From a virus (taxonomy: Duplodnaviria > Heunggongvirae > Uroviricota > Caudoviricetes): a stretch of 64,000 nucleotides of DNA. Below the pieces are notes generated by a model. It worked only from the letters and a program-made list of their open reading frames with translations, did no database searches and was not told the origin of the DNA. The first letter of the stretch is position 1. Each line of letters opens with the position of its first letter. Positions 100 to 63,584 of this stretch are shown here, piece by piece. The position numbers and the translations under genes are program-made. The stretch lies in the IMG/VR virus record IMGVR_UViG_2939521961_000011; one strand, given 5' to 3'.

Positions 100-281
100 G
101 AAACTCGTAGAGCAAAAGTGTTGTTACACTAACTTCGTCACAGGGTTATCCTGCAATACTCAAAATACACAATATTTACAAAACTAATAGTATACAAGGC
201 GATCTTTAAGATTTTGTTATTAATTGTGGTCGCACCTTCCTTTCTGTGTACTTTCCGTATAGCTCACAGGATTCTGGGTAC

Positions 282-3787: not shown

Positions 3788-3943
3788 TTACTCCTCAGGT
3801 TCGTAAGCTGTGAAGACAGCGACCTCCGTCTGGCCGGTTCGGATTCGTACCTCGCAGAGGTCTTTCCTCGTTACCAGTGCCGTCACTATGACGGTTAAAC
3901 AGATGACAATCAGGGCGATTAACATCGCCTTTTGCTGCTTCAT
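3788..3943 (-). CDS. hok: Hok-family type I toxin (HokD/RelF-like)
   Basis: 51 aa MKQQKAMLIALIVICLTVIVTALVTRKDLCEVRIRTGQTEVAVFTAYEPEE, the canonical Hok sequence; AAGGAG RBS. Confidence 0.9.
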   Translation of the reverse strand: MKQQKAMLIALIVICLTVIVTALVTRKDLCEVRIRTGQTEVAVFTAYEPEE

Positions 3944-4170
3944 AGCCTGCTTCTCCTTGCCTTTCGGCACGTAAGAGGCTAACCTACATGTGCAAAGCAT
4001 GAAATTGGCCTCAGATTAATGTTAAGCGTCCTGCAAGACGCGTAATGTTAACTGGGGCTTTTCTCTGTCTGCCTTACGGCGGCATGCCCGAGGCAGACAG
4101 CCTCAAGCACCCGCAGCAATTCTACTTAACTCTTCTTTCCCCGCAAATCATTTTATCCCCGATGGTAATG
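3944..4170. promoter_or_regulatory. hok leader and presumed Sok antisense-RNA region
   Basis: Conserved with the region upstream of the second hok (50011..50220); Hok loci carry an antisense Sok RNA and leader fold-back elements here. Confidence 0.4.
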
Positions 4171-4766: not shown

Positions 4767-5037
4767 GATAACGCCCTCTGGTTGATGAATTTAACTATCA
4801 CCACCTTCAGGTCTCAATCATCAGGTGGCGAGACGTACAGGGTTGAGACTACCGGATCAACCAACCGGCCAGCCTTTCGGCTGCCCCATACGCCTCACCA
4901 TAATTCAGATGTGCGTGCGCATACGACAATAAAAAACACGCTCGCGGCGTGTGTCTGTCGCGGTTGAATATCCGGGGTCTCAATCCCGACGGTCAACTCG
5001 ACCGTGCGGTGAATATAGCCCCGGATTAGTAATTACG

Positions 5038-39961: not shown

Positions 39962-40426
39962 AAGTGACCTCCGATTATCTACAGACTGCCATCCTGAATT
40001 TACCTTCCCTTAATGAAATAACAATAAAAAACAAACCACGCAAAAACAATAAAACAACACACAAAAAAAACTAAATAATAAACAAAAATAATCACCTTAT
40101 TTTATTATTTTTTGAGGGAGCAATTACTGAACAAAAAACGCTGACTATATACTCAAAACCAAACAACTATTCTGCCAATCAGGTATCATGGCAACACACG
40201 GAATTACCGTGTTTTTGCCTTCTCTGCCCATACAATACGGGCATATACTTCATTCTCTATTGTAATATTTCTATCCATGTGCCCCACTCCATTTACCTGT
40301 AAATAATATTCAAAATATTTATCACAGAAATCGTTTTTGGCCATGAACTGAGCACACTATAAAGTCCGGAACTGACTCTTTGTTAAATTACCTTAACGTT
40401 ACCAGTAACACCTTCATAACAAAACA

Positions 40427-41759: not shown

Positions 41760-41889
41760 GGATATTTATCAGGATTTATCGGTTCCGAATCCCTGGATAT
41801 GTTAAGCCTTCACCCCACCAGTGGTGGGCACTGGCGGGTTCTTAATTTCCCCGGATGATCGTGGATTACATTCCACCAGGAGATTACTT

Positions 41890-42522
41890 ATGCTTATCTA
41901 TCCAGCGGCAGACCTCCGTTTACAGGGACGCAGAGCACAACCATGGGATAAAACAACCACTCATAAATATCGTCCCGGTCAATATTATGACTTTCGTAAA
42001 CACCCGGAACTGATCGAGACACACCTTGAGGATTTTGTTGAATATTCAGACAGACAAGCGATTCAGACCTTTTTTTCTTTTGTTAAGTGGATCAACAGCA
42101 ATTCATCTGCATTCGAGAGCACGGACTGCATGTTTTCAGGAACACCAAAGGTTGATGAATACGCCCCGGTATTTGGTTGCACCCATGCGTCATCTGGCCG
42201 CTTCGAATTTTTGTTTCGCGATACGAAAATAAACCAAAATGAGCGAGCTGTCGGATGGGTACTTAACAAACTATCGCTCTACCTTCAGAAAGAACGGCCC
42301 GATTTTTGTAAAGGAACCTTTGGCATCGTTCCCCTCATGACGGAATATACCGACTCCGGCGGTAACGAGTTCACCGGTTATCGTATTTGTGTCTATTTCG
42401 ATGCTTACGGGAATGGAACAGAGGATACCTGGACTTCTCTCAACATCATGTTTGATGGCCTCATGAAAGCCACCAAAAGAATGAGCAATGAAACAATCAC
42501 TGGCGAGATGCGTCCCCTTTAA
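41890..42522 (+). CDS. Hypothetical protein inside the lysis-cassette insertion, antisense to the lysis operon
   Basis: 210 aa from an ATG with AGGAGA RBS; its 3' 252 nt overlap the convergent ORF 42271..43062 in the same codon register. Confidence 0.45.
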   Translation: MLIYPAADLRLQGRRAQPWDKTTTHKYRPGQYYDFRKHPELIETHLEDFVEYSDRQAIQTFFSFVKWINSNSSAFESTDCMFSGTPKVDEYAPVFGCTHASSGRFEFLFRDTKINQNERAVGWVLNKLSLYLQKERPDFCKGTFGIVPLMTEYTDSGGNEFTGYRICVYFDAYGNGTEDTWTSLNIMFDGLMKATKRMSNETITGEMRPL

Positions 42523-43062
42523 AAAATTATCCAGAATCTCACTATTTGCAGAGCGCTCTCTGTTTTTTTGAATACGGAAACACTCTGCGAGATTTCTGCT
42601 CATCACTTTCCGGCAATAATCGTAAAACGCCGCGAACTGCTCATCACGGCGTTTTTTTTCACCTTCGGAAGGGATCTGCACCGACAGTTTTTTATTCAGT
42701 TCAACGACGCTGTTCTCCAGTTTTTCAATGCGTGATTCGATATCATCTTTTTCTGACTGTATCGTGTTATATGCATTGTTAATTTGTATGGTATACCGCT
42801 CTTCTGAACAGAGGCGCTTTTCCGGCAACGGTTCGTTCCCTTCACATAACCCGGCAGCAATATCCATGAAAAACTGCTTCGCCTTCTTTTTCGCCTCAGC
42901 TTCGTAAAACTCCAGCGGGGCACCTTCAACACGATCAAGATCAATCACCACATTTGGCAACAACAGTGACGTATACCCACCAGTTTCCAGCGCCACAGTA
43001 ACAGTAATCTTATCCGGGTAAATATTTATCCCTTTAACAACCAGTTCGTATTGTTTATTCAT
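42271..43062 (-). CDS. Hypothetical protein directly downstream of the holin, central coiled coil
   Basis: 263 aa; ATG 3 nt after the holin stop with GGGGAGAG RBS; 3' part overlaps the convergent plus-strand ORF. Confidence 0.45.
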   Translation of the reverse strand: MNKQYELVVKGINIYPDKITVTVALETGGYTSLLLPNVVIDLDRVEGAPLEFYEAEAKKKAKQFFMDIAAGLCEGNEPLPEKRLCSEERYTIQINNAYNTIQSEKDDIESRIEKLENSVVELNKKLSVQIPSEGEKKRRDEQFAAFYDYCRKVMSRNLAECFRIQKNRERSANSEILDNFLKGTHLASDCFIAHSFGGFHEAIKHDVERSPGILCSIPVSIEIDTNTITGELVTAGVGIFRHEGNDAKGSFTKIGPFFLKVER

Positions 43063-43065
43063 CGT

Positions 43066-43272
43066 CTACTCTCCCCGCGCCGCCTTACGACGGTCCTCTC
43101 TGATTTTGAAATACAGGTTAGTAAGATACGTCAGCAGGCCAAACAGCAGACTCCCCAGCACACCTATCGCCACCCACTGGGACGGAGAGACTTTGTCCAG
43201 CAGCTGCAGTAACCAGTATCCCGTCCCCACCGCTGACGTGGTGTATGACACACCTGTTGTGATTTTTTCCAT
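43066..43272 (-). CDS. S: Pinholin, phage-21 S-like
   Basis: 68 aa; ...[51 protein letters not shown] resembles S21. Confidence 0.85.
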
Positions 43273-43450
43273 CTGATGTATGTCTCCGTCACCGCCGACA
43301 GAAAATGAAAGTAAAGAAAAACAAAAAAGCCGCCAGTGTCACCCACTGACGGCCAACGCCGGGAGCCGTGATTATGGCATTCAGGCTCTGCTAAAAATGC
43401 CAGATAACATTCCGGCCTCCCCTGATTCAGGTTATAAATGACACAATATC

Positions 43451-43718
43451 TTGACAACATCCGTCACTGTCTGTCAGAAAATGTACTGCCATATAGAAGC
43501 AACATGTGAAGTACATCTATCCTTTTGAGCCAGCACCTCTCCACCGAAAGTCAGTGCTGGCTGTTTTTTTCCTTAATAAGGCATCTGTAACTGAAACAAT
43601 CCGCATATTGATAATATATTGACAGGCATCATTGCTGTCTGTGAAAAATAAGTCTCTACAAACATATAAGGCCTTTTAGCCAGCGTCTTCTTTTTCAGGT
43701 CAGTCGCTGGCTTTTTTT
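43451..43718 (+). repeat. Two tandem paralogous promoter-like/terminator units (candidate small RNA genes)
   Basis: Units at about 43451..43570 and 43619..43718 each begin TTGACA, share a CTGTCTGT box and end in a gccagc...gctggc hairpin plus T7. Confidence 0.3.
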
Positions 43719-43719
43719 A

Positions 43720-45570
43720 TTATGCTGCCGGTGCATTTATCTCCAGCATCAGACTTTCTATCTCAACGCCATACGCTGCATTTTTTGTAACATCCGTCAG
43801 CGTCAGCGCATTCAGTCCCAGTGTCAGACTGTCTTTTATAACCTGGAATGCCGGGCCAGCCACTCCATTCAGTTTCGGAGTAACCGTGGCACTGCCGGCG
43901 GTGAACACCAGCTCCAGCGTCTGCCAGTCGTTACCGTAATCGCCGAACTCCCCCAGCTTCGTGTTTCCGGCTTTCCTGTGATGCATCAGATTCACTCTGC
44001 CGTCAGTGGTCTGAGTGAAGTACGACATCAGGAACGGATTACCGGTACCCGTCATCGCCACACCATCAGGAACGGGAGCATCTGTATACAGATAAATCCC
44101 CAGCCCGAACTGATTGTTGGTCAGTGCGCCTGACAGGCGGAACTTACAGGTCAGTCTGCCGCCCTGTGTCAGCAGGGTAATTGCGTCATCCACCGGATGC
44201 GTCAGGGACCAGGTTTTATTGCTCTGCTTGGTGATCTTAAATACACCATCTGACAACTGAATTCCGCCATCCTTAATGCTCCAGCCCTGCGCAGCAGCCT
44301 CTCCGGCTGCCGGCAGCAGGGAGATTGTGCGAACGGACGTATCTGCAGACGGACCCGATGGCGTGTTGCCGCCGGGCGAGGGTTTGATTTCCGGTGCCTT
44401 ACCACTGATGAAGGCGGAGGTGCGCCCGGCTGCGTTCAGAATAGCGGTTGCCAGACGATCCGGAATAATGCTCCTGCGCGCCCATGAACTGAAATGTGTC
44501 GGGCGGTTTGATGATACCTGGTTTCCATTCGTTCTCGATGCCGCACCGTAATATCCTGATGCCGGAATATCCGGATCTTCTGCCGGCGCGTTAGTGGCGG
44601 TATTGACACCGTTACCGTCTGTCATGAAGGGCACAAAATAAACGCCCTCACTCTCCCTGTTTTTATACCCGCCGTACACGGTGTCGTACTGGGTAGCGTA
44701 TGTATTTTTCCAGTAATACGTCGTGTCACCACAAATCCACGGCACATCTGCAGCACTGCCACCATGGCACTGCGCGTTAAACACGGAGAGGTCAGCACGA
44801 AACTGTGTCAGCATGGCTGTAAACAGCGCAGGTTGCTGTGCGTGGGTGGCGGCGCTCATGTCAAACTCTCCCTGCATCCAGCACACCGCCAGCAACACAT
44901 TTTTCGGGTTCTTCTGTAATGCAGCTTTAGTGCGCGCAATCAGGTCCTGATATAACGGTTTACCCACACCCCAGCGTGCCGAATCCTGGCTGGCCCCCGT
45001 GTCCGCACTGAATGTCCCCTCCGCGCCCTGGGTGAATGCCGAACCACCACGACAGCATGGTACCAGCAGGATCCCCGCGTTATTCGGGATATACGGGAGC
45101 AGTTTTTTGGCAATATGTAACCCCTGGCCGACACAGCCGTACTGCCCTTTGCTCAGGTCTGCCTTCGGATGATTCAGCGTACTCATATCCTGCACATCAT
45201 GCAGGCAGTGGTCGGCCGGAATAATATCGTTATATCTGCAGGCAGCCCCACCCGGCGTCACTGTACTGCGGCGCGCCAGCTGTTTAATGCGCGGATCCGG
45301 AGCATCGTATGAATCCGGCAGCGGAAGCCCTTCACCGTAAGCCATGGCATTGGACTGCCCGGCCAGTACGATGACGTAGTACCACTCCGGCTCAGTTGCA
45401 CCACTGACCACCACATCACCTTCTGCTGTAATCGCCTGCATCAGGGTATAAGGGGTTATGGCCACCGGACTCCCAAACGGCTGCCAGCCCTCTTTCAGTT
45501 TGTGTGTCAGCTTTTCCGCAAGGTCTGACGGCGACGCCGCCCTGACAACATCATAATGTTTAAATGTCAT
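43720..45570 (-). CDS. Prophage sialate O-acetylesterase-like protein (NanS-p-like)
   Basis: 616 aa with DUF1737-like N-terminus and SGNH/SASA-type GQSN motif (VIVLAGQSNAMAYGEG); Q-downstream position as in Stx-type phages. Confidence 0.7.
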   Translation of the reverse strand: MTFKHYDVVRAASPSDLAEKLTHKLKEGWQPFGSPVAITPYTLMQAITAEGDVVVSGATEPEWYYVIVLAGQSNAMAYGEGLPLPDSYDAPDPRIKQLARRSTVTPGGAACRYNDIIPADHCLHDVQDMSTLNHPKADLSKGQYGCVGQGLHIAKKLLPYIPNNAGILLVPCCRGGSAFTQGAEGTFSADTGASQDSARWGVGKPLYQDLIARTKAALQKNPKNVLLAVCWMQGEFDMSAATHAQQPALFTAMLTQFRADLSVFNAQCHGGSAADVPWICGDTTYYWKNTYATQYDTVYGGYKNRESEGVYFVPFMTDGNGVNTATNAPAEDPDIPASGYYGAASRTNGNQVSSNRPTHFSSWARRSIIPDRLATAILNAAGRTSAFISGKAPEIKPSPGGNTPSGPSADTSVRTISLLPAAGEAAAQGWSIKDGGIQLSDGVFKITKQSNKTWSLTHPVDDAITLLTQGGRLTCKFRLSGALTNNQFGLGIYLYTDAPVPDGVAMTGTGNPFLMSYFTQTTDGRVNLMHHRKAGNTKLGEFGDYGNDWQTLELVFTAGSATVTPKLNGVAGPAFQVIKDSLTLGLNALTLTDVTKNAAYGVEIESLMLEINAPAA

Positions 45571-45784
45571 TATTCCTCCCGGCCGGGATAGTGTATTAAA
45601 TCAGATATGGAGTGGGCTGTAGTCCGGAAGCCTGAATGACACACGGGGACTACAGCCCAAGAAATGAAAAAAGGCCACGCAGTTGCGCAGCCTGATAAAC
45701 CCTGGTTAAAATCCACACGATAACAACACAACAATATCAGTATCTCATGCTATTGCCCGAACCCATTCGGGCATTTTTTACCCA

Positions 45785-45816
45785 TAAAAAAGCCCCTCCG
45801 GAGAGGGGCATGTTTG
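45785..45816. terminator. Bidirectional rho-independent terminator
   Basis: gcccctc cgga gaggggc hairpin flanked by an A-run and a T-rich stretch. Confidence 0.4.
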
Positions 45817-46140
45817 CATGCACATTCTTTTTCTTGCATGGTGCCGGGTGCCTCCCGGTGAATTCAGTATCAGCACCTGAATCCGCGATTATCACATATA
45901 CCTGGTTGCTGATTGCCCCTCCGCACAGGGGGATTCACCATGCAGTAGTATTTTTAATAAACAGTAAACAAAAAAATCAAGCATTATGCAGGCTGTTTCT
46001 TTTTATCACCGGCCACAGCAATACCACAATGCCGCAGACCAGCACCCCATCCGCCAGCACCGACATGATTCTGCTGGTGAAATCCACCATCACCACCAGA
46101 AACAGCAGGAGTGCAGCCACAGCCAGGCGCAGTTTTACCG

Positions 46141-46740: not shown

Positions 46741-47562
46741 CTATCTGGTCACCTTTTTCAGTTGTTGTTCTGCCCATGCTTCTTCAATATCAAACTGCAC
46801 CACCAGCGTATCGTAAAAACGTTTAACTGTTTTTTTCCATGTATCAAGAGATATGGCATCGGTTACATTACATATGGCATTAAATGCCTCCGTTGAAGGT
46901 AATCTTTCATAGCCACGACCACCACAACGCTGGCAGTCTCTGATAACAGGCATACCACGTTTTACCGACTCTTCACGATGAATGGCAACACCGCGCCCAC
47001 GACAATCTTTACAGGCGGTGGAAACCTCCCCCTTCCCTCCACACTCCGGACAGGCAACTTTTACCACCTCCCTGACTTTTTTCCATTCCTCCCAGTAAGA
47101 CGGATACACGCCTTTTGTGCACTTTGCCCACACTGGCGGCTTACCATCCGGATACTGGATCTTGTTTGTAAAAACCTCGCTTTCAATAAATTTTTTTCCG
47201 TGACAACAGGGGCACTGTTTTTTGCTCGCCGCGCTACGGGCATAATCTTCAAACGCATACGAAGCCATAATACGCATCACTGCCGGTTTTATTTCTGCCG
47301 GGAGTTTTCTTAACGCCGCCACGCGATCACACCGACTGAGTGCATATTCTGTCAGCAATTCTGTTGCCCGCTCTCTGTCATTCATACTAATGCCCATTTT
47401 CCCAAGGAACGCAGAAAACCCCATCTCAGCCCAATTCTGTGTCATGCCCTGCGCGGCCATCACATCAGTGATACTCAGCGTATCTTTCGACGTTGAGGCC
47501 GATGCATCAGTCAGGCCGGGGGATTTTGGGGAGTAGTATTTCGGTAAATCTTCCAGTTTCAT
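46741..47562 (-). CDS. Q: Late-gene antitermination protein Q (zinc-finger type)
   Basis: 273 aa; shares the LPKYYSPKSP N-terminus and CxxC zinc-finger repeats with the prophage A Q. Confidence 0.8.
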   Translation of the reverse strand: MKLEDLPKYYSPKSPGLTDASASTSKDTLSITDVMAAQGMTQNWAEMGFSAFLGKMGISMNDRERATELLTEYALSRCDRVAALRKLPAEIKPAVMRIMASYAFEDYARSAASKKQCPCCHGKKFIESEVFTNKIQYPDGKPPVWAKCTKGVYPSYWEEWKKVREVVKVACPECGGKGEVSTACKDCRGRGVAIHREESVKRGMPVIRDCQRCGGRGYERLPSTEAFNAICNVTDAISLDTWKKTVKRFYDTLVVQFDIEEAWAEQQLKKVTR

Positions 47563-49854: not shown

Positions 49855-50010
49855 TTACTTCTCAGATTCGTAGTCTACGAAGACAGCGACCTCCGTCTGA
49901 CCGGTTCGGATTCGCACCTCGCAGAGGTCTTTCCTCGTTACCAGTGCCGTCACTATGACGGTTAAACAGATGACGATCAGGGCGATTAACATCGCCTTTT
50001 GCTGCTTCAT
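49855..50010 (-). CDS. hok: Hok-family type I toxin
   Basis: 51 aa MKQQKAMLIALIVICLTVIVTALVTRKDLCEVRIRTGQTEVAVFVDYESEK; conserved leader/Sok region upstream. Confidence 0.9.
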   Translation of the reverse strand: MKQQKAMLIALIVICLTVIVTALVTRKDLCEVRIRTGQTEVAVFVDYESEK

Positions 50011-50220
50011 AGCCTGCTTCTCCTTGCCTTTCGGCACGTAAGAGGCTAACCTACATGTGTTCAGCATGGATTGAGCCTCAGATTAATGTTAAGCGTCTTG
50101 CAGGACGCGTAATGTTAACTGGGGCTTTTCTCTATCTGCCGTTGGTGTTCATGCCCGAGGCAGATAGCCTCAAGCACCCGCTGCAATTCTACTTAACTAT
50201 CCTTTTCCCGCAAACCGTTT

Positions 50221-61449: not shown

Positions 61450-61656
61450 ATGACAAAAATTATGAGATATGACGATGTTAAACCATGTCCGTTTTGTGGT
61501 TGTCCATCTGTTACAGTGAAAGCAATTTCAGGATATTACCGGGCAAAATGCAACGGATGCGAATCCCGAACTGGCTATGGTGGAAGTGAAAAAGAAGCAC
61601 TCGAAAGATGGAATAAACGAACTACTGGAAATAATAATGGAGGTGTTCATGTATAA
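61450..61656 (+). CDS. ralR: Restriction alleviation protein Lar (RalR)
   Basis: MTKIMRYDDVKPCPFCGCPSVTVKAISGYYRAKCNGCESRTGYGG... with Cys4 zinc ribbon, as Rac Lar. Confidence 0.8.
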   Translation: MTKIMRYDDVKPCPFCGCPSVTVKAISGYYRAKCNGCESRTGYGGSEKEALERWNKRTTGNNNGGVHV

Positions 61657-61837
61657 AATAACTGCCACTATTGAAAAAGAAGGTGGCACTCCTACTAACT
61701 GGACAAGATATTCAAAATCTAAATTAACGAAATCAGAATGCGAAAAAATGCTCTCAGGGAAAAAAGAAGCAGGCGTGTCCAGAGAGCAGAAAGTAAAGCT
61801 GATAAATTTTAATTGCGAGAAACTTCTGTCCTCGTGA
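61637..61837 (+). CDS. ydaC: YdaC-like small protein
   Basis: Small ORF overlapping the lar 3' end, in the Rac order lar-ydaC-xis-int; start uncertain. Confidence 0.5.
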   Translation: MEVFMYKITATIEKEGGTPTNWTRYSKSKLTKSECEKMLSGKKEAGVSREQKVKLINFNCEKLLSS

Positions 61838-63306: not shown

Positions 63307-63584
63307 TATAACCAAAAAAGACCGGAATACAGAAATTCGAGTAAATTTCGAGTAATTTCGGGGAGACGTTTGCAACTAATTGATTTTAAATACAATTAAA
63401 AAAAGACCGAATACGATTCCTGTATTCGGTCCAGGGAAATGGCTCTTGGGAGAGAGCCGTGCGCTAAAAGTTGGCATTAATGCAGGCTTAGTTGCCTTGC
63501 CCTTTAAGAATAGATGACGACGCCAGGTTTTCCAGTTTGCGTGCAAAATGGTCAATAAAAAGCGTGGTGGTCATCAGCTGAAAT

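What the first reader, a model, noticed from the sequence alone, without database searches (positions are those of the whole stretch)
43451..43718. Two tandem paralogous promoter-like/terminator units between NanS-p and the holin, antisense to late transcription
Each unit (about 43451..43570 and 43619..43718) starts with TTGACA, contains a CTGTCTGT box and ends in a strong hairpin plus T7 on the plus strand, the layout expected for short independently transcribed RNAs. Neither has a clear -10 element. They are antisense to the late operon and lie just upstream of the holin, so they could encode anti-sRNAs of the kind reported in pathogenic E. coli prophages or modulate holin expression.
Basis: inference. 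Interest (0 to 1): 0.5.

Follow-up and report, generated by a model that had tools for sequence, protein, structure and literature searches.

The report
Known prophage sRNA PasA plus paralogue
The two units are real, tandem, related small-RNA genes in a lambdoid prophage: the first is the published Hfq-dependent sRNA PasA, and the second has been detected as an Hfq-bound RNA but never named as a separate gene, so the finding is correct but largely already known.

Summary
Between nanS-p (43720..45570, -) and the P21-type holin (43066..43272, -), the + strand carries two units. Each has TTGACA-N10-CTGTCTGT, then an AGCCAGC...GCTGGCT hairpin and a T7 run. The units are significantly alike (z about 9). 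The spacer is 100% identical to E. coli E2348/69 prophage PP2 and to phage 434.

Unit 1 is PasA. Its published 85-nt form maps to 43486..43570, which puts TTGACA exactly at -35. Its published minor 236-nt form ends at the unit 2 terminator. PasA was confirmed by Northern blot, needs Hfq for stability, and pairs mainly with mRNAs.

The unit 2 3' end meets the EPEC RIL-seq criteria for an sRNA. After correcting a coordinate offset, the EHEC Hfq-CRAC peaks EcOnc51 and EcOnc52 fall on unit 2 and begin at its predicted +1. Unit 2 is probably a separate RNA of about 66 nt, but this is unproven.

Both promoters read as a consensus -35, an 18-nt spacer ending in TGn (extended -10), and a weak -10.

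The units are not AgvB/AsxR-type anti-sRNAs. A true AgvB lies at 45718..45779. A role in holin control is untested. Novelty: already known. Interest is low.

The parts
43451..43456 (+). Unit 1 (pasA) -35 hexamer TTGACA
   Evidence: 6/6 match to consensus. It lies exactly at -35..-30 relative to the published PasA 5' end. PasC in E2348/69 PP5 has the same promoter, and its 5' end falls at the same base.
43472..43480 (+). Unit 1 TGT (extended -10 TGn) plus weak -10 CAGAAA, 18-nt spacer
   Evidence: Read from the sequence. TGn-nAnAAA is kept in all variants seen, including TGC-CAAAAA in L141. Its function is inferred, not shown.
43486..43570 (+). PasA sRNA, major 85-nt form
   Evidence: Table S6 of PMC8550237 gives NC_011601 (-) 743499->743415. 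This was mapped through the 100%-identical alignment. The Northern probe matches 43537-43561. The fold shows a 5' stem-loop, a CCUUUUG linker and the terminator.
43529..43538 (+). Published PasA seed GCCAGCACCU (5' arm of the terminator stem)
   Evidence: Fig. S5 text of PMC8550237. Zhu et al. 2026 report it as conserved across PasA variants.
43528..43570 (+). Unit 1 intrinsic terminator (9-bp stem, 17-nt loop, G, U7)
   Evidence: A compensatory C:G to U:A change occurs in the D1-type allele. The terminator is leaky, since the 236-nt form exists.
43619..43624 (+). Unit 2 -35 hexamer TTGACA
   Evidence: It is retained, with only 17-20 nt of upstream sequence, in loci where an IS element or other DNA has replaced unit 1.
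43640..43648 (+). Unit 2 TGT plus weak -10 GAAAAA, 18-nt spacer
   Evidence: Same geometry as unit 1. Inferred.
43654..43718 (+). Predicted unit 2 sRNA (about 65-66 nt), equivalent to EcOnc51/EcOnc52 and to 'pasA.E2348C_0688.IGR'
   Evidence: The 5' end is predicted from the -35 position. The 5' edges of EcOnc52 and of offset-corrected EcOnc51 fall within 3 nt of it. RIL-seq RNA2 fragments map to 43691-43718. The fold has a single-stranded 25-nt 5' region plus the terminator, z = -3.7.
43678..43718 (+). Unit 2 intrinsic terminator (8-bp stem, U7); also the 3' end of the 236-nt PasA read-through form
43742..43752 (-). CUGAUGCUGGA motif in the last codons of nanS-p, a RIL-seq PasA target site
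   Evidence: Table S7 of PMC8550237 lists E2348C_0688_743175_743305, site at position 59. The motif is present in the window. Only about 7 bp pair with the seed, so this is weak.
43318..43354 (-). Context only: - strand terminator-like hairpin plus T-run between the pasA promoter and the holin start
   Evidence: Annotated as a terminator in the phage 434 record.

Best explanation
The nanS-p/holin spacer carries two tandem, paralogous sRNA genes on the strand opposite the late operon.

Each gene has:
- a sigma-70 promoter with a consensus -35, an 18-nt spacer ending in TGn, and a weak -10;
- a short variable 5' body;
- a U-rich linker (CCUUUU);
- an intrinsic terminator with a U7 tail. The linker plus terminator is the usual Hfq-binding module.

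Gene 1 is pasA.
- RNA polymerase starts at about 43486 and mostly stops at 43570, giving the 85-nt Hfq-stabilised PasA.
- PasA pairs in trans with core-genome and accessory mRNAs, through a seed that overlaps the 5' arm of its terminator.
- A minority of transcripts read through to the second terminator, giving the 236-nt form.

Gene 2 most likely starts at about 43654 and ends at 43718. That would give an RNA of about 66 nt with a different single-stranded 5' region, and so different targets.

The two + strand terminators stop these transcripts from running antisense into nanS-p.

Shown by published experiments on identical sequence: PasA's existence, size, strand, Hfq dependence and RNA partners, and Hfq binding at the unit 2 3' end.
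Inferred here: that the PasA 5' end is a primary start, the extended -10 reading, and independent initiation of unit 2.
For: - The spacer is 100% identical to E2348/69 PP2 and to phage 434.
- PasA coordinates, strand, probe, sizes (85 and 236 nt) and rank come from Table S6 of PMC8550237. The same paper reports the Northern blot and Hfq dependence.
- The mapped 5' end of PasA puts TTGACA exactly at -35. The PasC 5' end is at the same base behind an identical promoter.
- The two published 3' ends coincide with the two terminators.
- The unit 2 entry 'pasA.E2348C_0688.IGR' separately met all four RIL-seq sRNA criteria. Its RNA2 fragments lie at 743267-743294, which is 43691-43718.
- EcOnc52 (Sakai Sp4) lies where IS629 has removed unit 1. 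Its 5' edge at 1182075 sits next to the predicted +1 at 1182074.
- The offset between the Tree 2014 coordinates and NC_002695.2 is +137..142 at AsxR, AgvB1 and HnrS. That places EcOnc51 on unit 2 of Sp12.
- Paralogy z is about 9.
- In the terminator stem, 2 of 8 pairs show compensatory changes.
- Among 120 IMG/VR loci, 65 (+6 whose unit 2 terminator was not detected) have the tandem A-B arrangement, 38 (+4 without a detected terminator) have A alone, and 6 have B alone.
- The element is found in 692 of 5426 complete E. coli genomes, with a median of 5 copies.
Against: - Neither promoter has a canonical -10, and the scanner called neither.
- Zhu et al. 2026 state that the PasA 5' end is thought to arise by cleavage of a longer transcript. 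However, Table S6 gives both forms the same 5' end.
- No experiment separates a 66-nt unit 2 RNA from the 3' part of the 236-nt read-through. The published probe lies in unit 1.
- The unit 2 copies in Sp4 and Sp12 are identical, so CRAC reads cannot be assigned to the copy that lacks unit 1.
- The zero offset assumed for the Sp4 coordinates is inferred, not measured.
- Family members are all at least about 87% identical, so conservation of the promoter boxes says little about selection.
Confidence: 0.85

Rival explanations
1. Only unit 1 is a gene. Unit 2 is a decayed duplicate that now serves only as a back-up terminator, catching PasA read-through before it enters nanS-p. All RNA ending at 43718 would then be the 236-nt form or fragments of it.
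For: - The 236-nt PasA form shares the PasA 5' end and stops at the unit 2 terminator.
- The unit 1 terminator has a long loop and a G before the U-run, so leakiness is plausible.
- Unit 2 has far fewer RIL-seq chimeras than PasA: 119/54 against 4983/116.
Against: - Unit 2 keeps a perfect -35, the TGn, and the same spacing as unit 1.
- The EcOnc51/52 peaks are 77-78 nt wide and begin at the predicted unit 2 +1, not upstream of it.
- Unit 2 persists, promoter intact, in several loci where unit 1 has been lost.
Confidence: 0.35
2. The units are AgvB/AsxR-type anti-sRNAs (sponges) that sequester core-genome sRNAs.
For: - They share the general setting: prophage late region, convergent with late transcription, Hfq-bound.
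- A few sRNA-sRNA chimeras exist in the neighbourhood, namely rne5::PasC and pasA.E2348C_0689.IGR::PasB.
Against: - The AgvB and AsxR covariance models give no match at E <= 1.
- The units lack the conserved 42-nt 3' region of that class, and at 85 nt and about 66 nt they are longer than its 51-60 nt.
- PasA partners are predominantly CDS or 5'UTR.
- The window has its own bona fide AgvB elsewhere.
Confidence: 0.07
3. Their main role is in cis. As perfect antisense RNAs, or through convergent transcription, they would act on the late transcript between nanS-p and S. This would uncouple nanS-p from the lysis genes, or tune holin expression and lysis timing.
For: - Both RNAs are fully complementary to the late mRNA 215-450 nt upstream of the S start codon.
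- RIL-seq records the nanS-p 3' region as a PasA partner.
Against: - No data exist on lysis timing.
- PasA is expressed in uninduced lysogens and has many trans targets.
- Many prophages have lost or truncated one unit through IS insertion.
Confidence: 0.15
4. The hairpins are merely terminators for read-through + strand transcription from upstream, and no functional RNA is made.
For: The phage 434 annotators marked them only as terminators.
Against: - A discrete 85-nt Hfq-dependent RNA with 41 interaction partners has been demonstrated for the identical sequence.
- No convincing + strand gene lies upstream. The 53-aa ORF at 43280-43441 has no ribosome-binding site. The 233-aa ORF at 41821-42522 has no Pfam match and overlaps a DUF1327 gene.
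Confidence: 0.03

Closest known systems
PasA / PasC (pathogenicity-associated sRNAs of EPEC E2348/69; Pearl Mizrahi et al. 2021, PMC8550237; Zhu, Shabalina and Storz 2026, doi 10.64898/2026.05.13.724894)
   Same: - Unit 1 is PasA itself: identical sequence, strand, synteny (SASA esterase - pasA - class II holin), terminator and seed.
- PasC has the unit 1 promoter and 5' body joined to a unit 2-type stem (AGCCAGCG/CGCTGGCT) that abuts nanS-p.
   Different: - The literature treats the locus as one gene with a minor 236-nt form.
- It does not describe unit 2 as a paralogous promoter-plus-terminator module.
- Zhu et al. attribute the PasA 5' end to processing. The -35 position suggests a primary start instead.
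EcOnc51 / EcOnc52 (Hfq-CRAC peaks in EHEC Sakai prophages Sp12 and Sp4; Tree et al. 2014, PMC4104026, Table S2)
   Same: After coordinate correction, both peaks cover unit 2 from its predicted +1 to just past the U-run. Unit 2 in Sakai differs from the window only by a 2-nt loop deletion and a 2-nt insertion before the U-run.
   Different: - They were never validated by Northern blot or named.
- Pearl Mizrahi et al. list them simply as 'homologues' of PasA.
- They correspond to unit 2, not to the 85-nt PasA.
AgvB / AsxR anti-sRNAs (Rfam RF02702, RF02703)
   Same: Prophage late-region location, convergent with late transcription, Hfq-binding, short, with an intrinsic terminator.
   Different: - Unrelated sequence and structure.
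- Different site: directly after the PR' terminator.
- Sponge mechanism.
- The window's AgvB is at 45718-45779.
HnrS (EcOnc10-12; 66-nt multicopy prophage sRNA repressing hha; Poudyal et al. 2026, PMC13502914)
   Same: Same size class as the predicted unit 2 RNA, multicopy in EHEC and EPEC prophage late regions, and Hfq-bound.
   Different: It is a different locus, downstream of Rz and about 3.2 kb away in Sp12, with a different sequence. My hypothesis that unit 2 is HnrS was tested and rejected.

Membership tests
PasA/PasC sRNA family | Sequence identity to PasA of E2348/69 (NC_011601 743415-743499, - strand) | tested here: met
   100% identity over the whole 447-nt spacer. The probe matches 43537-43561 exactly.
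PasA/PasC sRNA family | Synteny: between the sialate O-acetylesterase (SASA) gene and the holin/lysozyme operon, on the opposite strand | tested here: met
   ORFs and Pfam: SASA+DUF1737+DUF6645 at 43720-45570 (-) and the P21 holin at 43066-43272 (-). This matches the published description.
PasA/PasC sRNA family | 3' stem-loop plus poly-U, and a conserved seed overlapping the 5' arm of the stem | tested here: met
   The seed GCCAGCACCU is at 43529-43538.
PasA/PasC sRNA family | Hfq-dependent accumulation of an RNA of about 85 nt | not testable with these tools
   Published for the identical sequence in E2348/69. Not measured for the source of this window.
PasA/PasC sRNA family (unit 2 as a member) | Alignable to PasA/PasC over promoter, linker and terminator | tested here: met
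   Full-length similarity z about 9. Unit 2 shares the AGCCAGCG stem with PasC. BLAST alone does not link units 1 and 2.
PasA/PasC sRNA family (unit 2 as a member) | Independent transcript with its own 5' end | tested here: inconclusive
   The EcOnc51/52 edges and the RIL-seq 3'-end fragments fit. Read-through from pasA and multi-mapping are not excluded.
AgvB/AsxR anti-sRNAs (RF02702/RF02703) | Match to the covariance model and its conserved 3' domain of about 42 nt | tested here: not met
   No hit in 43451-43718 at E <= 1, while AgvB scores 96.5 bits at 45718-45779.
AgvB/AsxR anti-sRNAs (RF02702/RF02703) | 5' region mimicking the target site of a core sRNA, so that the RNA acts as a sponge | not tested
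   I only noted by eye a C/A-rich stretch (CAAACAUA) in the unit 2 5' region. There was no test against GcvB. The published partners of PasA are mostly mRNAs.
Sigma-70 promoter | -35 and -10 hexamers at 16-18 nt spacing, upstream of a mapped 5' end | tested here: inconclusive
   The -35 is 6/6 at the right distance from the mapped PasA and PasC 5' ends. The -10 is only 3/6, although preceded by TGn. The scanner did not call it.
Intrinsic (Rho-independent) terminator | GC-rich hairpin immediately followed by a U-run, at a mapped RNA 3' end | tested here: met
   Both published PasA 3' ends (743415 and 743264) coincide with the two U-runs.

The most novel reading that the evidence does not exclude
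Unit 2 is a separate, independently transcribed Hfq-dependent sRNA gene of about 66 nt. It would be a tandem paralogue of pasA with its own extended -10 promoter and a different single-stranded 5' targeting region. The nanS-p/holin spacer would then hold a two-gene sRNA array. PasC and the single-unit alleles would be recombinants between the two modules, and EcOnc51/52 would be this second gene rather than PasA.
Probability: 0.55. Interest if true: 0.3.

Novelty: already known. Interest (0 to 1): 0.2.

Why it matters
PasA is among the most connected accessory-genome sRNAs in EPEC, and its partners include T3SS and bfp mRNAs. Correct gene boundaries therefore matter for anyone deleting or over-expressing it.

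Two small clarifications follow from this work:
- The 'long form' of PasA is a 3' read-through to a second terminator. It is not evidence that the 5' end is processed.
- The Hfq-bound RNA called EcOnc51/52 in EHEC corresponds to the second unit. A 'pasA deletion' that leaves unit 2 in place may therefore leave a related regulator behind.

Neither point changes the general picture of prophage-encoded sRNAs.

Tried and rejected
1. My first collection scan used TTGACA-N11-CTGTCTGT. The true spacing is N10, so the 5 hits were chance matches. I repeated it correctly.
2. Rfam at E <= 1 gave nothing in the units, so no curated family exists for them.
3. I tested whether unit 2 is HnrS, the 66-nt multicopy sRNA. 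It is not: HnrS lies downstream of Rz and has a different sequence.
4. I tested for a Fur box over the promoters, because PasA and RyhB show the same condition bias in RIL-seq. The best matches were 11-12 of 19, which is background level.
5. I looked by eye for LexA or CII sites in the CTGTCTGT box and saw no convincing match. This was not scored.
6. The genome-contig scan gave 56 hits, about the chance number. The only real one is the tandem pair in Escherichia albertii, which agrees with the published Escherichia/Shigella restriction.
7. Locating the EcOnc38 and EcOnc13 probes to fix the coordinate offsets failed. The EcOnc42 probe was uninformative. AsxR, AgvB1 and HnrS gave the offset instead.
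8. The + strand ORFs at 43280-43441 (53 aa) and 41821-42522 (233 aa) are not credible genes that would need these terminators.
9. The supplements of the dRNA-seq papers are not held, so start sites could not be read directly.

Full report
**Setting.** The finding lies in the late region of a lambdoid prophage that is transcribed on the - strand. In order along that strand:
- Antiterminator Q, 46741-47562.
- A PR'-type short RNA (Rfam STnc100, PasD-like), 45780-45969.
- nanS-p, 43720-45570, with SASA, DUF1737 and DUF6645 domains.
- A 447-nt spacer.
- A P21-type class II holin, 43066-43272.
- A DUF1327 protein, then lysozyme and Rz.

 The two units occupy the + strand of the spacer.

**Observation.**
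- TTGACA-N10-CTGTCTGT occurs only at 43451 and 43619 in the whole window. About 0.02 matches are expected by chance.
- The AGCCAGYR...YRCTGGCT-N-TTTTT hairpin pattern occurs only at 43528 and 43678.
- BLAST does not link the two units. A full-length alignment does, with z about 9 against 2000 dinucleotide shuffles.
- Shared blocks are an AT-rich stretch upstream of the -35, the -35 itself, the CTGTCTGT box, a nAnAAA hexamer, a CC(U)UUU linker, the stem arms and the T7 run.
- The hairpins terminate only + strand transcription.

**Identity of unit 1.** The spacer is 100% identical to phage 434 and 99.3% identical to Stx1a phages and phage YYZ-2008. The phage 434 annotators marked two + strand terminators and one - strand terminator there. 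The spacer is also 100% identical to prophage PP2 of EPEC E2348/69.

In that strain, Pearl Mizrahi et al. (PMC8550237) defined PasA by RIL-seq, RNA-seq and Northern blot.
- Table S6 places it on the strand opposite its neighbours, running 743499 to 743415 (major form, 85 nt) or to 743264 (minor form, 236 nt).
- The probe is GCCAGCACTGACTTTCGGTGGAGAG.
- Through the identical alignment these coordinates become 43486-43570 and about 43721.
- The probe is the reverse complement of 43537-43561.

So unit 1 is pasA. Its two 3' ends are the two terminators, and both forms share one 5' end. PasA needs Hfq for stability, is more abundant under virulence-activating conditions, ranks 12th by number of interactions, and pairs mostly with CDS or 5'UTR segments, including T3SS and bfp mRNAs.

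**Promoter.**
- The mapped 5' end at 43486 puts TTGACA at exactly -35..-30.
- The 18-nt spacer ends in TGT (43472-43474), followed by CAGAAA.
- Unit 2 has the same geometry, with TGT followed by GAAAAA.
- Diverged alleles keep TGn plus nAnAAA.
- PasC, in another E2348/69 prophage, has an identical promoter, and its independently mapped 5' end falls on the same base.

I therefore read the PasA 5' end as a primary start from an extended -10 promoter. Zhu et al. 2026 instead suggest cleavage from a longer transcript. However, the longer species in Table S6 is extended at the 3' end, not the 5' end. My reading is inference; no TEX or RACE data could be accessed.

**Unit 2: EPEC evidence.** The entry 'pasA.E2348C_0688.IGR' separately satisfied the four RIL-seq sRNA criteria:
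- it is always RNA2;
- it has a U-tract of 7;
- it has 5 interactions;
- its partners are mostly mRNAs.

Its fragments map to 743267-743294, which is 43691-43718.

**Unit 2: EHEC evidence.** Tree et al. 2014 list the Hfq-CRAC peaks EcOnc51 (Sp12) and EcOnc52 (Sp4).
- In Sp4, IS629 has replaced everything upstream of a point 20 nt before the unit 2 -35.
- The 5' edge of EcOnc52, at 1182075, is next to the predicted +1 at 1182074.
- The coordinates of Tree et al. differ from NC_002695.2 by +137..142 at AsxR, AgvB1 and HnrS. The HnrS landmark is only 3 kb from EcOnc51.
- With that offset, EcOnc51 covers unit 2 of Sp12 from its predicted +1 to about 10 nt past the U-run, the same relative position as EcOnc52.

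Caveats:
- The two Sakai copies of unit 2 are identical, so reads cannot be assigned to the copy that lacks unit 1.
- The zero offset at Sp4 is inferred. It rests on the matching widths and heights of the two peaks, and on the published statement that EcOnc52 is a PasA homologue.
- No probe specific to unit 2 has been used.

I put independent transcription of unit 2 at about 0.55-0.6.

**Family survey.**
- The element occurs in 692 of 5426 complete E. coli genomes, with a median of 5 and a maximum of 9 copies.
- A scan of one genome per species found it outside E. coli only in E. albertii.
- Among 120 IMG/VR loci, 65 (+6 whose unit 2 terminator was not detected) are tandem A-B at 167-169 nt spacing, 38 (+4 without a detected terminator) have the A promoter alone, and 6 have B alone.
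- Variation is concentrated in the first 40 nt or so of the A transcript. The alleles are PasA, PasA-2, PasC-like and a 'D1' type.
- Terminators come as exchangeable modules. PasC combines the A body with a B-type stem. The D1 type has the A stem with a compensatory C:G to U:A change and abuts nanS-p directly.
- Only the 8-bp terminator stem is common to all members, and 2 of its pairs show compensatory changes.
- All members are close relatives, so conservation is weak evidence of constraint.

**What it is not.**
- The AgvB and AsxR covariance models do not match the units. A genuine AgvB lies at 45718-45779, convergent with the PR' RNA.
- HnrS, another 66-nt multicopy prophage sRNA, is a different locus and sequence.
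- No Fur box is present.

**Mechanism and rivals.** The best-supported reading is two trans-acting, Hfq-dependent sRNA genes. Terminator 1 is leaky, and terminator 2 protects nanS-p from antisense transcription. The rivals are:
- unit 2 as a mere back-up terminator (0.35);
- a cis-antisense role on the late transcript or on holin timing (0.15, untested);
- a sponge function (0.07);
- terminators only (0.03, refuted for unit 1).

**Verdict.** The specific anti-sRNA and holin suggestions are unsupported. The feature is already in the literature as PasA and as EcOnc51/52. The only new points are that the locus is a tandem pair of paralogous modules, and that EcOnc51/52 correspond to the second module.

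Noticed in passing
window 45718-45779 (+) and 45780-45969 (-): A full-length AgvB anti-GcvB sRNA (RF02702, 96.5 bits) lies convergent with, and abutting, a PR'-type short RNA (STnc100, PasD-like, 147.8 bits), just upstream of nanS-p. This is the classic 'convergent sRNA pair at the moron site'.
   Followed up: partly
window 40151-40216 (+): A candidate 66-nt sRNA downstream of Rz, with hairpin ACACGG/CCGTGT plus T5. It has the same position and orientation as HnrS in Sakai Sp12 and shares a CCAATCAG core, but overall similarity is weak (z = 2.8). It may be a divergent positional analogue of HnrS.
   Followed up: partly
window 43318-43354 (-), and weaker at 43399-43416 (-): A strong - strand terminator-like hairpin plus T-run lies about 45 nt upstream of the holin start. 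In a lysogen it would stop non-antiterminated transcription leaving nanS-p before it reaches the lysis genes.
   Followed up: no
related loci L006, L007, L026, L064, L068, L111, L129, L130: IS629/IS1203-type insertions recur at different points of this spacer: in the unit 1 terminator stem, in its T-run, 17-20 nt upstream of the unit 2 -35, and in the unit 2 body. This looks like an insertion hot spot. It probably explains the terminator-less 'PasA-3' variant described by Zhu et al. 2026.
   Followed up: partly
Sakai coordinates (NC_002695.2 compared with Tree et al. 2014, Table S2): The EcOnc coordinates published in 2014 are offset by about +137 to +142 nt from the current RefSeq version at 1.27, 1.94 and 2.23 Mb, but apparently not at 1.18 Mb. 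Anyone reusing that table needs to correct for this.
   Followed up: partly
window 3938-4112 (-), 4821-5005 (-), 10591-10642 (+), 50005-50179 (-), 61655-61833 (-), 63394-63538 (both strands): Other Rfam hits above the gathering score are sok (two copies), C4, isrK, DicF, RalA, and the core pair SraC/RyeA with SdsR/RyeB. The window is unusually dense in prophage-borne regulatory RNAs.
   Followed up: no
window 41821-42522 (+) and 42271-43062 (-): A 233-aa + strand ORF with no Pfam match overlaps, by 250 nt, the 3' part of a 263-aa DUF1327 (YdfR-like) gene lying between the holin and the lysozyme. The DUF1327 protein is much longer than typical YdfR. Which ORF is real in the overlap was not resolved.
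   Followed up: no
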